Source: Escherichia coli
GTDB lineage: Bacteria > Pseudomonadota > Gammaproteobacteria > Enterobacterales > Enterobacteriaceae
DNA length: 64,000 nt
Direction: 5' to 3' (one strand)
Assembly (NCBI RefSeq): GCF_048403405.1
Contig: NZ_CP183129.1
A program made the position numbers and the translations under genes. Positions 6,137 through 45,419 of this stretch are shown here, piece by piece. Positions within the stretch are counted from its first letter, which is position 1, and each line of letters begins with the position of its first letter. The notes beneath the pieces are model-generated. The model was not told the DNA's origin. It did not search any database and was given only the letters and a program-made list of their open reading frames with translations.

Positions 6137-6370
6137 AAACGATGAGCAATCTGTAGAGTTTGATTCAGACCTTCTATTTTTCCCGCTTATCCGTGCCCCA
6201 TCTCCCATTTTCCCTCACCCGTACCGTCACCGCCTTGTCATCTTTCTGACACCTTACTATCTTACAAATGTAACAAAAAAGTTATTTTTCTGTAATTCGA
6301 GCATGTCATGTTACCCCGCGAGCATAAAACGCGTGAATTCGCGCATTCGGTACAACAAGAGAGATAAACG

Positions 6371-7687
6371 ATGAAACCGTTACATTATACAGCTTCAGCA
6401 CTGGCGCTCGGACTGGCGTTAATGGGGAATGCACAGGCAGTGACGACCATTCCGTTCTGGCATTCTATGGAAGGGGAACTGGGTAAAGAGGTGGATTCTC
6501 TGGCCCAACGTTTTAACGCCGAAAACCCGGATTACAAAATTGTACCGACCTATAAAGGCAACTACGAACAGAATTTAAGCGCGGGGATTGCCGCATTTCG
6601 TACCGGCAACGCTCCGGCTATTTTGCAGGTTTATGAAGTTGGCACCGCCACCATGATGGCGTCGAAAGCCATTAAACCGGTGTATGACGTGTTTAAAGAG
6701 GCGGGGATTCAGTTCGATGAGTCGCAGTTTGTGCCGACGGTTTCAGGCTATTACTCCGACAGCAAAACCGGCCACTTACTCTCCCAGCCGTTCAACAGCT
6801 CGACTCCTGTTCTCTATTACAACAAAGACGCCTTCAAGAAAGCGGGGTTAGACCCGGAACAGCCGCCGAAAACCTGGCAGGATCTGGCGGACTATGCCGC
6901 GAAACTGAAAGCCTCCGGTATGAAGTGCGGCTACGCCAGCGGCTGGCAGGGCTGGATCCAACTGGAAAACTTTAGCGCCTGGAACGGTCTGCCGTTTGCC
7001 AGCAAAAACAACGGCTTTGACGGCACAGACGCGGTGCTGGAGTTCAACAAGCCGGAGCAGGTGAAACACATCGCTATGCTCGAAGAGATGAACAAGAAGG
7101 GCGATTTCAGCTACGTCGGGCGTAAGGATGAATCCACTGAGAAGTTCTATAACGGTGATTGCGCGATGACCACCGCCTCTTCCGGTTCTCTCGCCAACAT
7201 TCGCGAGTACGCCAAATTTAACTACGGCGTAGGCATGATGCCTTACGACGCCGATGCGAAAGATGCGCCACAAAACGCCATTATCGGCGGAGCCAGCTTG
7301 TGGGTAATGCAGGGTAAAGATAAAGAAACTTATACGGGTGTGGCGAAGTTCCTCGACTTCCTCGCGAAGCCAGAAAACGCTGCCGAGTGGCATCAGAAAA
7401 CTGGTTATCTGCCAATCACCAAAGCGGCGTATGACCTGACCCGTGAGCAGGGTTTTTATGAGAAAAACCCAGGGGCGGATACCGCGACGCGTCAGATGCT
7501 GAATAAGCCGCCGTTACCGTTCACCAAAGGGCTGCGTCTGGGTAACATGCCGCAGATCCGCGTGATTGTGGATGAAGAGCTGGAGAGCGTGTGGACCGGT
7601 AAGAAGACACCACAGCAGGCACTGGATACCGCCGTTGAGCGTGGGAACCAGTTACTGCGCCGCTTTGAGCAGTCTACGAAGTCTTAA
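6371..7687 (+). CDS. ugpB: sn-glycerol-3-phosphate ABC transporter periplasmic binding protein UgpB
   Basis: 438 aa with signal peptide [23 protein letters not shown]; first gene of the ugpBAECQ order. Confidence 0.93.
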
Positions 7688-7689
7688 TT

Positions 7690-7850
7690 CTCTTACCCTC
7701 ACCCTAACCCTCTCCCAAAGGGAGAGGGGACCGATCGGCGTGGTATCCAGGTGCCGTGTCGGTTTGCAACTTCGCTCGGTGGGAAAGTATGCACCGCCTT
7801 TCTCCCTCGCCCCTCTGGGGAGAGGGCCGGGGTGAGGGGATCACAACACG
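7690..7850. repeat. GC-rich nested palindromic intergenic element between ugpB and ugpA
   Basis: ccctctccc-aaa-gggagaggg and ccctcgcccctctggggagagggccggggtgaggg hairpins, with outer cctcaccc ... gggtgagg complementarity. Confidence 0.5.
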
Positions 7851-7862
7851 AAGAGTTTAACT

Positions 7863-8750
7863 ATGTCATCATCCCGTCCGGTGTTCCGCTCGCGCTGGCT
7901 GCCCTATTTGCTGGTCGCGCCGCAGCTCATCATCACCGTTATCTTTTTTATCTGGCCTGCGGGCGAAGCGTTGTGGTACTCGCTGCAAAGCGTCGATCCG
8001 TTTGGTTTCTCCAGCCAGTTTGTCGGCCTGGATAACTTCGTCACGCTGTTTCATGACAGCTACTATCTCGACTCCTTCTGGACGACGATAAAATTCAGCA
8101 CCTTTGTCACCGTCAGTGGTTTGCTGGTGTCGCTGTTCTTTGCGGCGCTGGTGGAGTACATCGTGCGCGGCAGCCGTTTCTATCAAACCTTGATGCTGCT
8201 GCCGTATGCCGTGGCTCCCGCCGTTGCCGCCGTATTGTGGATCTTCCTGTTTAACCCTGGTCGCGGGCTGATCACCCATTTTCTCGCTGAGTTCGGCTAC
8301 GACTGGAACCACGCGCAAAACAGCGGTCAGGCGATGTTTCTGGTGGTGTTTGCCTCGGTGTGGAAGCAAATCAGCTACAACTTTCTGTTCTTCTATGCCG
8401 CGCTGCAATCCATTCCCCGTTCGTTGATCGAAGCCGCAGCCATCGACGGTGCAGGCCCGATTCGCCGCTTCTTTAAGATTGCGCTGCCGCTTATCGCTCC
8501 GGTGAGTTTCTTCCTGCTGGTGGTGAACCTGGTGTACGCCTTCTTCGACACCTTCCCGGTGATCGACGCCGCCACGTCCGGCGGGCCGGTTCAGGCCACC
8601 ACGACGCTGATTTATAAGATTTACCGCGAAGGCTTTACCGGACTGGATCTGGCTTCGTCTGCCGCGCAGTCGGTGGTGTTGATGTTCCTCGTCATCGTGC
8701 TGACGGTGGTGCAGTTCCGCTATGTTGAAAGCAAGGTGCGTTACCAATGA
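7863..8750 (+). CDS. ugpA: sn-glycerol-3-phosphate ABC transporter permease UgpA
   Basis: 295 aa membrane protein with MalF/G-type permease fold. Confidence 0.92.
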
Positions 8751-9593: not shown

Positions 9594-10664
9594 ATGGCAG
9601 GACTGAAATTACAGGCAGTAACCAAAAGCTGGGATGGCAAAACCCAGGTCATTAAACCGCTGACCCTTGATGTGGCGGATGGCGAATTTATCGTGATGGT
9701 CGGGCCGTCTGGCTGCGGGAAATCGACGTTATTGCGAATGGTGGCCGGACTGGAGCGGGTAACGACGGGCGATATCTGGATCGACCGCAAGCGTGTCACC
9801 GAAATGGAGCCGAAAGATCGCGGGATTGCGATGGTGTTCCAGAACTACGCGCTCTATCCGCATATGAGCGTAGAGGAGAACATGGCGTGGGGGCTGAAAA
9901 TTCGCGGCATGGGCAAGCAACAAATTGCCGAACGTGTTAAAGAAGCGGCGCGCATTCTGGAGCTGGACGGCCTGCTTAAGCGCCGCCCGCGTGAGCTATC
10001 TGGCGGTCAGCGTCAGCGCGTGGCGATGGGGCGTGCGATTGTGCGTGAGCCGGCAGTGTTCCTGTTTGATGAGCCGCTCTCTAACCTCGATGCCAAGTTG
10101 CGTGTGCAGATGCGTCTTGAACTGCAACAGCTGCACCGTCGCCTGAAAACGACTTCACTCTACGTTACTCACGATCAGGTTGAAGCGATGACGCTCGCCC
10201 AGCGAGTAATGGTGATGAACGGCGGCGTTGCCGAACAGATTGGCACGCCAGTTGAAGTGTACGAAAAGCCCGCCAGCCTGTTTGTGGCGAGTTTTATCGG
10301 CAGTCCGGCGATGAATCTGCTGGCAGGGCGTGTGAATAACGAAGGTACGCATTTCGAACTGGACGGCGGTATCGCGCTGCCGCTAAACGGTGGCTACCGT
10401 CAGTATGCCGGGCGTAAAATGACTCTCGGCATTCGCCCGGAACATATAGCGCTAAGCTCGCAGGCAGAAGGTGGTGTGCCGCTGGTGATGGACACGCTGG
10501 AGATCCTCGGCGCAGATAATCTGGCGCACGGACGCTGGGGCGAACAGAAGCTGGTGGTGCGACTGGCGCATCAGGAGCGCCCGACGGCAGGCAGCACGCT
10601 GTGGCTGCATCTGCCGGAAAATCAGCTGCATCTTTTTGATGGTGAAACAGGACAACGAGTATGA
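9594..10664 (+). CDS. ugpC: sn-glycerol-3-phosphate ABC transporter ATP-binding protein UgpC (356 aa)
   Basis: ORF 9555..10664; ATG at 9594 gives [13 protein letters not shown]...; Walker [10 protein letters not shown]; MalK-like C-terminal domain. Confidence 0.92.
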
Positions 10665-16979: not shown

Positions 16980-17069
16980 GCGATCAGGAAGACCCTCGCG
17001 GAGAACCTGAAAGCACGACATTGCTCACATTGCTTCCAGTATTACTTAGCCAGCCGGGTGCTGGCTTTT
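16980..17069 (+). ncRNA. ryhB: RyhB small RNA (Fur-repressed, iron-sparing regulator)
   Basis: gcgatcaggaagaccctcgcggagaacctgaaagcacgacattgctcacattgcttccagtattacttagccagccgggtgctggctttt matches recalled RyhB; ends in a GC hairpin plus U-run; lies between yhhY and yhhX. Confidence 0.9.
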
Positions 17070-17190
17070 TTTTGATCTTTCGTTTTCAATTTATCCACGG
17101 GAAGTGCTTGTGTTCGTTATGCGCACTCCAGTAGGAACCACGTCCGCTTTGCGCTAAGGTGTAAATAATCACCTTAAAAAGGACGAAATC

Positions 17191-45312: not shown

Positions 45313-45419
45313 TGCCGGATGCGACGTGAACGTCTTATTGGCCTACAAAATCATGCAAATTCAATATATTGCATAAACCACGTAGGCCTGATAAGCGTAG
45401 CGCATCAGGCAGTTTTTTT
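45313..45419. repeat. REP/BIME element with trailing T-run (terminator-like on + strand)
   Basis: tgccggatgcgacgtgaacgtcttattggcctac ... gtaggcctgataagcgtagcgcatcaggc followed by agttttttt. Confidence 0.6.

What the first reader, a model, noticed from the sequence alone, without database searches (positions are those of the whole stretch)
7690..7850. Structured GC-rich nested palindromes occupy the ugpB-ugpA intergenic gap
The 175-bp gap inside the ugp operon contains a perfect hairpin (ccctctccc-aaa-gggagaggg), a second related hairpin and outer arms (cctcaccc ... gggtgagg) that could fold into a long composite structure. This is unlike REP/BIME sequence and could act as an mRNA stabiliser or partial terminator setting high UgpB versus lower UgpAEC expression, or be a small MITE-like repeat. 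I could not assign it to a named repeat family.
Basis: seen in the sequence. Interest (0 to 1): 0.35.

Follow-up and report, generated by a model that had tools for sequence, protein, structure and literature searches.

The report
BoxC repeat pair between ugpB and ugpA
The GC-rich nested palindromes between ugpB and ugpA are two copies, on opposite strands, of the long-known E. coli "BoxC" repeat (also published as PIT, TM-ECO and HPG1/HPG2), so this is an ordinary member of a named family whose function remains unproven.

Summary
The 175-bp ugpB–ugpA spacer (7688-7862) holds a perfect 9-bp hairpin, a second imperfect one and complementary outer arms. As RNA it is predicted to fold into one long stem-loop (-83.9 kcal/mol, z -4.1).

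It does belong to a named family. Both arms match the published BoxC/PIT/TM-ECO pattern exactly: a type A unit on the minus strand (7696-7728) and a type B unit on the plus strand (7804-7838). This is the same divergent A/B pair as the lldD–trmL copy in E. coli K-12.

- **Copy number:** the arms are dispersed repeats, with a median of 9 places per E. coli genome. The 74-nt centre is single-copy.
- **Allele frequency:** only 317 of 5426 complete E. coli genomes carry this allele. Nearly all the rest have a 97-bp spacer, and the K-12 and GTDB-representative copies I read hold a REP/BIME pair.
- **Other genera:** eleven other Enterobacterales species representatives, from about nine named genera, carry the same BoxC pair in the same spacer and the same orientation.

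The MITE and intrinsic-terminator readings fail their tests. The most likely role is a stem-loop in the mRNA that stabilises or uncouples the ugpB segment, as REP does. This is inferred, not shown. The kind is already known and interest is low to moderate.

The parts
6371..7687 (+). ugpB, the periplasmic sn-glycerol-3-phosphate binding protein gene; stop codon TAA at 7685-7687
   Evidence: ORF list; RefSeq annotation of a 100%-identical genome
7688..7862 (+). ugpB–ugpA intercistronic spacer, 175 bp. This whole stretch is what is exchanged between E. coli alleles.
   Evidence: Identity to K-12 is 96-97% on both sides and collapses only inside the spacer.
7696..7728 (-). BoxC / TM-ECO unit, type A with perfect stems. 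On the minus strand it reads CCCTCTCCC TTT GGGAGAGGG TTA GGGTGAGGG. Its G-rich 21-mer equals the HPG1 consensus. It starts 8 nt after the ugpB stop codon.
   Evidence: Exact match to the published pattern (0.00 expected). Type definition. HPG1 21-mer.
7729..7747 (+). Left subterminal segment GGACCGATCGGCGTGGTAT. It is shared with the K-12 lldD–trmL pair and, in part, with the ugp-spacer pairs of other genera (consensus GGGGAC-NG-NNCGG-NG).
   Evidence: Alignments
7748..7792 (+). Locus-specific filler inside the pair. It is single-copy and not unusually structured on its own.
   Evidence: The 74-nt centre (7730-7803) occurs once each in the same 317 genomes and nowhere else in 5426 genomes. Its fold gives z = -0.54.
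7793..7803 (+). Right subterminal segment (C)CGCCTTTCT, leading into the type B unit. It is shared with other pairs (consensus CTTTTCTCCCTCGCCCC).
   Evidence: Alignments
7804..7838 (+). BoxC / TM-ECO unit, type B with one mismatched triplet ('B mm'): CCCTCGCCC CTCTG GGGAGAGGG CCG GGGTGAGGG. Its G-rich 21-mer equals the HPG2 consensus. It ends 24 nt before the ugpA ATG.
   Evidence: Exact match to the published pattern. Within one loop base of TM-ECO no. 18 of K-12. HPG2 21-mer.
7850..7855 (+). GAAGAG, the probable Shine-Dalgarno sequence of ugpA, 7 nt before the ATG. An AGAG-type context is shared by the BoxC-type spacers of other genera.
   Evidence: Read from the sequence; comparison of spacers. 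Function is inferred.
7863..8750 (+). ugpA, the ABC transporter permease gene

Best explanation
The element is a divergent inverted pair of BoxC repeats (also called PIT, TM-ECO, HPG1/HPG2). A type A unit lies on the minus strand and a type B unit on the plus strand. They enclose two short conserved subterminal segments and about 45 nt of locus-specific filler, and together fill the ugpB–ugpA spacer. I put this identification at about 0.95.

The pair is not a recent insertion in this strain. It is one of two spacer alleles in E. coli; the K-12 and GTDB-representative copies of the other allele hold a REP/BIME pair. The same pair, in the same orientation, occupies the same spacer in about nine other enterobacterial genera.

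Most likely mode of action (inferred, about 0.4): the pair is transcribed inside the ugpBAECQ mRNA. The two units and their outer blocks pair into one long, very stable stem-loop whose base lies 8 nt after the ugpB stop codon. Such a structure would block 3'-to-5' exonucleases after cleavage downstream. The ugpB segment would then outlive the ugpAEC segment and the binding protein would be made in excess. REP pairs are known to do this in malE–malF (my own knowledge: Newbury et al. 1987).

At the DNA level the same units can adopt triplex or G-quadruplex folds in vitro. They are also associated with local sequence instability, which fits the variable interior and the allele turnover seen here.
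For: Identity:
- Both arms match CCCTCNCCC-N3-6-GGGNGAGGG-N3-GGGNGAGGG exactly, with 0.00 matches expected by chance. Their second loops are TTA (type A) and CCG (type B), as defined in PMC4666352.
- The 21-mers are identical to the HPG1 and HPG2 consensus sequences.
- The opposite-strand A+B pairing is the published rule.
- The architecture and the subterminal sequence match K-12 TM-ECO 17+18 at lldD–trmL.
- The arms are dispersed repeats: 5374 of 5426 genomes, median 9 places each.

Structure:
- The long composite stem-loop is the predicted minimum-energy fold here (-83.9 kcal/mol, z -4.1).
- The same fold is predicted in all 11 related BoxC-type spacers.
- Two lineages (L020, L043) changed both outer blocks together, CCCTCACCC/GGGTGAGGG to CCCTCTCCC/GGGAGAGGG, and so keep the pairing.

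A role for the spacer:
- In 79 Enterobacterales species representatives the spacer is never shorter than 49 nt.
- Of the 76 of these spacers that I classified, plus this window (77 in all), 12 hold BoxC pairs, 4 BoxC-like long hairpins, 27 REP pairs and 34 other palindromes or hairpins. Sixty-seven of the 77 fold with z < -2.
- Fourteen have a hairpin followed by a T-rich tail. Six of these, in Pectobacterium, Samsonia, Erwinia and Lonsdalea, belong to the least-structured spacers (z -0.7 to +0.9).
- The BoxC pair keeps its position and polarity in all 12 cases: A-type side 7-14 nt after the stop codon, B-type side 21-42 nt before the ATG.
Against: - No expression or RNA-decay data exist for this allele, and none could be generated here.
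- Holder et al. summarise Maher's follow-up work as finding no promoter or terminator activity and no effect on RNA polymerase for single PIT units. They also found no link between these units and gene function or position.
- Palindromic repeats may simply accumulate in any spacer that tolerates them, so 'always structured' does not prove selection for structure.
- About 94% of E. coli genomes lack this allele.
- In vivo DMS footprinting did not detect a triplex on the chromosome, so the DNA-level folds are unproven in cells.
Confidence: 0.6

Rival explanations
1. The pair is a functionless or selfish repeat that is merely tolerated in a permissive spacer. Its only consequence is local genomic instability (indels, interior expansion, allele replacement), as Holder et al. 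proposed for TM-ECO loci.
For: - TM-ECO loci are more variable than control intergenic sites across 56 E. coli strains.
- Here the spacer is dimorphic within E. coli (317 against about 5100 genomes).
- The distance between the two G-rich 21-mers ranges from 5 to 233 nt across species, with tandemly duplicated modules.
- REP and BoxC alleles alternate even within genera.
- No functional bias was found for these units in K-12.
Against: - Position, orientation and the A/B asymmetry are kept in all 12 BoxC-type spacers.
- Spacers without any repeat family still carry a hairpin.
- The spacer never collapses below 49 nt. In E. coli the downstream ugp genes overlap or abut.
Confidence: 0.3
2. The pair works as a non-B DNA switch. 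The G-rich strands fold into an intrastrand purine-motif triplex or a three-tetrad G-quadruplex during transcription or replication, and so modulate polymerase passage into ugpA.
For: Oligonucleotides of types A, B, A mm and B mm form very stable triplexes in vitro, with Tm 70-82 C and NMR support. CD indicates ion-dependent G-quadruplex/hairpin switching. The 21-mers here are identical to those studied.
Against: In vivo DMS footprinting showed normal guanine reactivity, and adding the complementary strand gave duplex signals. No effect on RNA polymerase, promoters or terminators was reported. The two units lie on opposite strands, so only the type B unit is G-rich in the non-template strand and the mRNA.
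Confidence: 0.1
3. The element is a partial intrinsic (Rho-independent) terminator that attenuates read-through from ugpB into ugpA.
For: It has a strong GC-rich stem just after ugpB. Fourteen of 77 related spacers do carry a hairpin followed by a T-rich tail.
Against: No T-run follows the stem here; the sequence after it is GATCACAACACG. The consensus scan found no terminator. PIT units showed no terminator activity according to the summary in PMC4666352.
Confidence: 0.05
4. The element is a MITE, a non-autonomous transposable element with terminal inverted repeats, recently inserted into the operon.
For: It has inverted terminal arms of about 34 nt and is about 143 bp long. The arms are dispersed in the genome and also occur on plasmids.
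Against: The centre is single-copy in all 5426 genomes. No direct repeat flanks the arms: TTCTCTTA on one side and GATCACAA on the other. The other E. coli allele is not an empty site but a different spacer, including the ribosome-binding region. The pair is at the same place in about nine other genera.
Confidence: 0.03
5. The element acts on translation. A stem base 8 nt after the stop codon hinders termination at ugpB, as reported for REP within about 15 nt of a stop codon (my own knowledge: Liang and Deutscher). Alternatively, flank pairing hides the ugpA Shine-Dalgarno sequence and couples ugpA translation to ugpB.
For: The stem starts 8 nt after TAA. With 12 nt of upstream context, the predicted fold pairs the end of ugpB and the first spacer bases with the GAAGAG region.
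Against: This Shine-Dalgarno pairing is predicted in only some of the 12 BoxC-type spacers and is 4-7 bp weak. There is no experimental support.
Confidence: 0.1

Closest known systems
BoxC / PIT / TM-ECO pair 17+18 in the lldD–trmL spacer of E. coli K-12 (Holder et al. 2015, PMC4666352; Kaplan et al. 2016, PMC5100583, HPGQ 43+44)
   Same: Same family and same architecture. The type A unit is on the strand opposite the upstream gene and starts 8-11 nt after its stop codon. The type B mm unit is on the other strand, and the third blocks face outward. The arms are nearly identical, and both have the subterminal segments GGGGACCG(A/T)TCGGCG..GTAT and TTTCTCCCTCGCCCC.
   Different: The interior filler is unrelated and longer here: 75 against 59 nt between the units. 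This copy lies inside an operon, between two cistrons. It is present in only 317 of 5426 E. coli genomes and is absent from K-12.
REP/BIME pairs in intercistronic spacers, such as malE–malF and the ugpB–ugpA spacer of K-12 itself
   Same: Same place in the same operon. Both are inverted pairs of a dispersed GC-rich palindromic repeat that start about 8-10 nt after the binding-protein stop codon and are predicted to fold into one long stem-loop. The proposed mode of action, a 3' stabiliser of the upstream cistron, is the one established for REP (my own knowledge).
   Different: The sequences are unrelated. REP has a known mobilising transposase family (RAYT; my own knowledge), and I know of none for BoxC. 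The mRNA-stabiliser role is demonstrated for REP only.
MITE-type elements transcribed into mRNAs, such as ERIC/IRU and the Neisseria Correia (NEMIS) elements
   Same: About 100-150 bp, with inverted termini. They sit between co-transcribed genes and fold into long hairpins in the transcript.
   Different: Here there is no target-site duplication and no multi-copy full-length element. Only the arms are repeated.

Membership tests
BoxC / PIT / TM-ECO | Sequence pattern 5'-CCCTCNCCC N3-6 GGGNGAGGG N3 GGGNGAGGG-3' (Holder 2015) | tested here: met
   Two exact matches, 7696-7728 (-) and 7804-7838 (+); 0.00 expected in 100 shuffles. Pattern as quoted.
BoxC / PIT / TM-ECO | Second loop is TTA (type A) or CCG (type B) | tested here: met
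   The left unit has TTA and the right unit has CCG. Definitions.
BoxC / PIT / TM-ECO | Always intergenic | tested here: met
   Lies wholly within the 7688-7862 spacer between ugpB and ugpA.
BoxC / PIT / TM-ECO | Dispersed, multi-copy within E. coli genomes (23 in K-12) | tested here: met
   The 175-nt query matches 5374 of 5426 genomes at a median of 9 and up to 17 places per genome. Only one pair lies within this 64-kb window.
BoxC / PIT / TM-ECO | When paired, the units lie on opposite strands and combine one type A with one type B | tested here: met
   A on the minus strand, B on the plus strand. Rule stated. The same holds in 10 of the 11 other species' ugp spacers; L022 has CCG and CAG loops instead.
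BoxC / PIT / TM-ECO | The single strand folds into an intrastrand purine-motif triplex in vitro | not testable with these tools
   The blocks are the same as in the type A and type B mm oligonucleotide classes characterised by CD and NMR. No triplex predictor or experiment is available here.
HPG1/HPG2 G-quadruplex–hairpin motif (Kaplan 2016) | 21-mer GGGAGAGGGTTAGGGTGAGGG (HPG1) or GGGAGAGGGCCGGGGTGAGGG (HPG2), with a C-rich 5' flank | tested here: met
   Both 21-mers are present with 0 mismatches at 7696-7716 (-) and 7818-7838 (+). Consensus sequences.
REP / BIME | REP (PU) consensus palindrome | tested here: not met
   A strict 41-nt REP-pair pattern (GCCGGATGCG N14 CGCNTTATCCGGCCTAC) with up to 3 mismatches found nothing in the window. 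The spacer does not align with the REP-bearing K-12 spacer.
MITE | Terminal inverted repeats | tested here: met
   34-nt arms, 74% complementary; the outer 9-mers are perfect.
MITE | Target-site duplication flanking the element | tested here: not met
   The flanks are TTCTCTTA and GATCACAA, with no direct repeat.
MITE | Several full-length copies at different loci | tested here: not met
   The central 74 nt occurs once per genome and only at this locus, in 317 of 5426 genomes. No full-length match in plasmids; the two full-length phage hits (71%) score like the K-12 lldD–trmL pair, not like this element.
Intrinsic terminator | GC-rich stem-loop followed directly by a T-run | tested here: not met
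   No terminator-like site in 7400-8100. My own scan found none in this spacer.
Any curated RNA family (Rfam 15) | Score at or above the family's gathering threshold | tested here: not met
   Only sub-threshold chance hits in 7000-8500. The whole-window scan finds only RyhB and ES036 elsewhere.

The most novel reading that the evidence does not exclude
The ugpB–ugpA spacer may be a slot kept under selection to hold some strong stem-loop, filled interchangeably by a BoxC pair, a REP pair, another palindrome or a hairpin with a T-run. On this reading the BoxC pair is an old, orthologous RNA-level element with fixed polarity across about ten enterobacterial genera. BoxC, whose function has been open for about 30 years, would then work as an mRNA 3' stabiliser or expression uncoupler like REP. 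The natural BoxC/REP dimorphism within E. coli would be a ready-made test system.
Probability: 0.25. Interest if true: 0.5.

Novelty: already known. Interest (0 to 1): 0.2.

Why it matters
As a sequence feature this is a routine copy of a repeat family first described in the early 1990s and re-described in 2000, 2015 and 2016, so the finding adds no new kind of element.

Two things give it modest value:
- The same spacer carries a BoxC pair in 317 E. coli genomes and a 97-bp spacer in nearly all the others; the two copies of that spacer I read hold a REP pair. The exchange is confined exactly to the spacer.
- The BoxC pair is kept at the same place and in the same orientation in about nine other genera.

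Together these give a natural allelic series. With it one could test whether BoxC has the RNA-level role known for REP, a question that earlier reporter assays on single units left unanswered.

Tried and rejected
- **Rfam:** a permissive scan of 7000-8500 and a gathering-threshold scan of the whole window gave nothing at the locus.
- **Promoter and terminator consensus scan:** nothing found.
- **MITE reading:** rejected because the centre is single-copy, there is no target-site duplication, and there are no full-length copies of this element on plasmids or phages.
- **Residual homology between the two E. coli spacer alleles:** none, and even the ribosome-binding region differs. No elevated divergence or recombination scar appears in the flanking coding sequence. 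Identity to K-12 is 96-97% up to the spacer, apart from 92% in the last 88 nt of ugpB.
- **Hiding of the ugpA Shine-Dalgarno sequence by flank pairing:** predicted here but not consistently in the 11 related spacers, so I do not rely on it.
- **Literature:** no paper in the library links ugpB with REP. 'ugp' does not occur in Holder 2015 or its held supplements. Searches for open-access sources on the REP-stabiliser and stop-codon-proximal-REP work gave nothing usable, so those points rest on my own knowledge.
- **The older 'RSA' repeat family:** I could not find its sequence in the library, so I could not check whether the whole composite corresponds to it.
- **E. coli phylogroup of the 317 carriers:** not determined.

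Full report
**1. What is in the sequence**

The window is E. coli. Positions 7400-8150 are 100% identical to several complete genomes, whose RefSeq annotation gives livF, ugpB, ugpA, ugpE, ugpC and ugpQ in this order. ugpB ends at 7687 and ugpA starts at 7863, so the spacer is 7688-7862, 175 bp.

- the perfect hairpin CCCTCTCCC-AAA-GGGAGAGGG at 7708-7728;
- a second, imperfect hairpin around 7804-7832;
- complementary outer blocks CCCTCACCC (7696-7704) and GGGTGAGGG (7830-7838), within 34-nt arms that are 74% complementary.

These motifs are not expected by chance: 0.00 matches in shuffles. As RNA the spacer folds into one long composite stem-loop of -83.9 kcal/mol, z -4.1. That is about 18 kcal/mol better than the three local folds added together. 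The centre alone is not unusually structured (z -0.54).

**2. What it is**

A literature search led to Holder et al. 2015 (PMC4666352). They define the E. coli 'TM-ECO' motif, earlier called BoxC and PIT, as CCCTCNCCC-N3-6-GGGNGAGGG-N3-GGGNGAGGG. The second loop is TTA in type A and CCG in type B.

This exact pattern hits the window twice and only here:
- 7696-7728 on the minus strand is type A with perfect stems.
- 7804-7838 on the plus strand is type B with one mismatched triplet.

The two G-rich 21-mers are also identical to the HPG1 and HPG2 G-quadruplex/hairpin consensus sequences of Kaplan et al. 2016 (PMC5100583).

Holder et al. note that paired units always combine an A with a B on opposite strands, and that holds here. 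Of the five K-12 pairs, only no. 17+18 (lldD–trmL) has the third blocks facing outward as in this window. Aligning that copy shows nearly identical arms plus shared subterminal segments, GGGGACCGNTCGGCG..GTAT and TTTCTCCCTCGCCCC, around an unrelated filler.

The element is therefore a member of a named and repeatedly described family.

**3. Copy number and the MITE idea**

The 175-nt spacer matches 5374 of 5426 complete E. coli genomes, at a median of 9 and up to 17 places each.

The central 74 nt (7730-7803) behaves differently. It occurs exactly once, and only in 317 genomes, always at this locus. No full-length copy exists on plasmids, where only arm matches are found. The two full-length phage hits (71% identity) score like the K-12 lldD–trmL pair and look like E. 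coli DNA in those records. No direct repeat flanks the arms. The MITE reading fails on two of its three defining features.

**4. A dimorphic spacer**

Only 317 of 5426 genomes carry this allele. In nearly all the others the two flanks lie 78 bp closer together, which gives a 97-bp spacer. The K-12 spacer (97 bp) and the GTDB-representative E. coli spacer (100 bp), the two I read, each hold a REP/BIME pair.

The two spacers share no detectable homology. Even the ribosome-binding region differs: GAAGAG...ATG here against CAGGAA...ATG in K-12. Identity to K-12 is the usual 96-97% on both sides, right up to the stop and start codons. The exchange is thus confined to the spacer.

**5. Other genera**

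A scan of species-representative genomes with UgpB returned 80 Enterobacterales loci. I extracted the ugpB–ugpA spacer from 79 of them.

Eleven species representatives carry the same divergent BoxC pair: a Pseudocitrobacter MAG, Superficieibacter, Phytobacter massiliensis, Pluralibacter, two Enterobacter, Kluyvera, Leclercia, an unnamed Enterobacteriaceae isolate and two Buttiauxella genomes. In all of them:
- the A-type side lies 7-14 nt after the stop codon;
- the B-type side lies 21-42 nt before the ATG;
- the TAA/CCG asymmetry leaves a 3x3 internal loop in the long helix. The one exception is L022, whose loops are CCG and CAG.

The distance between the two G-rich 21-mers ranges from 5 nt to 233 nt. 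At the short end (Enterobacter soli) the pair is a single 47-nt hairpin. At the long end the interior consists of tandemly repeated modules. Two lineages changed both outer blocks together and so kept the pairing; one has a mismatch.

I classified 77 spacers (76 of the 79, plus this window):

| Spacer content | Number |
|---|---|
| BoxC pair (including this window) | 12 |
| BoxC-like long hairpin | 4 |
| REP pair | 27 |
| Other palindrome or simple hairpin | 34 |

Sixty-seven of the 77 fold with z < -2, and none of the 79 is shorter than 49 nt. Fourteen have a hairpin followed by a T-rich tail. Six of these, in Pectobacterium, Samsonia, Erwinia and Lonsdalea, are among the least-structured spacers. 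REP-type and BoxC-type spacers alternate within genera (Escherichia, Enterobacter, Buttiauxella, Pseudocitrobacter). This points to repeated exchange or to long-lived polymorphism.

**6. How it most likely works**

Shown: the element is a BoxC pair, it sits inside the operon, it is predicted to form a very stable long stem-loop in the transcript, and it has no T-run and no promoter-like or terminator-like consensus.

Inferred: in the ugpBAECQ mRNA this stem-loop acts as a barrier to 3' exonucleases. The ugpB segment would then outlast ugpAEC, as REP pairs do in malE–malF (my own knowledge: Newbury et al. 1987). Two observations support the inference indirectly:
- A structured element is present after ugpB almost everywhere, whatever its family.
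- The BoxC pair keeps a fixed polarity and position.

Three points count against it:
- There are no expression data.
- Published work reports no terminator, promoter or RNA-polymerase effect for single PIT units and no functional bias of these units in K-12.
- Palindromic repeats may simply accumulate wherever they are tolerated.

The DNA-level readings have in vitro support, namely the triplex with Tm 70-82 C and G4/hairpin switching. The only in vivo footprint showed no protection. The published link with local instability fits the variable interior and the allele turnover seen here.

My confidence is about 0.95 for the identity, about 0.4 for the RNA stabiliser role, and about 0.3 for 'tolerated repeat without a role'.

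**7. Verdict**

The kind is already known. In the papers I could search, this particular locus is not named, nor are its BoxC/REP dimorphism or its conservation across genera. Holder's survey of 63 loci in 56 strains may nevertheless include it by coordinates. Interest is low. The modest added value is a natural allelic series for testing whether BoxC has an RNA-level function.

Noticed in passing
window 7688-7862 against K-12 (L003:213-309, minus strand): K-12 holds a REP/BIME pair in a 97-bp spacer where this window has the BoxC pair, and nearly all other E. coli genomes have a spacer of that length. Homology is lost exactly at the spacer, including the ugpA ribosome-binding region.
   Followed up: yes
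window 9700-10099 (ugpC): Identity to K-12 drops to 83-93% over about 400 nt, against about 96-97% around it. This may be a recombination tract inside ugpC.
   Followed up: no
L008, L020, L022, L023, L045 (ugpB–ugpA spacers of other genera): The interiors of the BoxC pairs are tandemly expanded modules: two modules of about 115 nt in Superficieibacter, three of about 35 nt in a Buttiauxella, and two in a Pluralibacter MAG, Enterobacter sp. CC120223-11 and Kluyvera. Each module starts GGGAGAGGGGAC..CGG and ends TTTCTCC. The family seems to grow from the apex of the hairpin.
   Followed up: partly
L031 (Leclercia adecarboxylata MAG), ugpB–ugpA spacer: A BoxC-like hairpin (CCCTCTCCC ACA GGGAGAGGG) is nested inside a REP pair in the same spacer. 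The two repeat families can therefore co-occupy the slot.
   Followed up: no
K-12 loci listed in PMC5100583 Table 1: BoxC units also lie in the pstB–pstA spacer and just 3' of phnP in K-12. With ugpB–ugpA that makes three Pho-regulon operons.
   Followed up: no
phage records MG065686.1 and MG065691.1 (Campylobacter phages A18a and A11a): These records match the query with exactly the score and coordinates of the E. coli K-12 lldD–trmL BoxC pair (71.1%, positions 9-153, 82 bits). This looks like E. coli DNA in those records.
   Followed up: no
plasmid collection: 354 plasmid records hold BoxC-arm matches (Klebsiella 142, Escherichia 45, Azospirillum 37 and others). Holder 2015 reported no association with plasmids. 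Several of the 'plasmid' records are megabase-sized and may be chromosomes.
   Followed up: no
window 17009-17073 (+) and 45347-45389 (+): The only Rfam hits above gathering score in the window are the RyhB sRNA and the ES036 (CssrF) sRNA. They are unrelated to the finding.
   Followed up: no
window 6212-6232 (-), livF–ugpB intergenic region: CGGTGACGGTACGGGTGAGGG is a weak partial match (2-3 mismatches) to the BoxC 21-mer. It has no C-rich partner and is probably chance.
   Followed up: no
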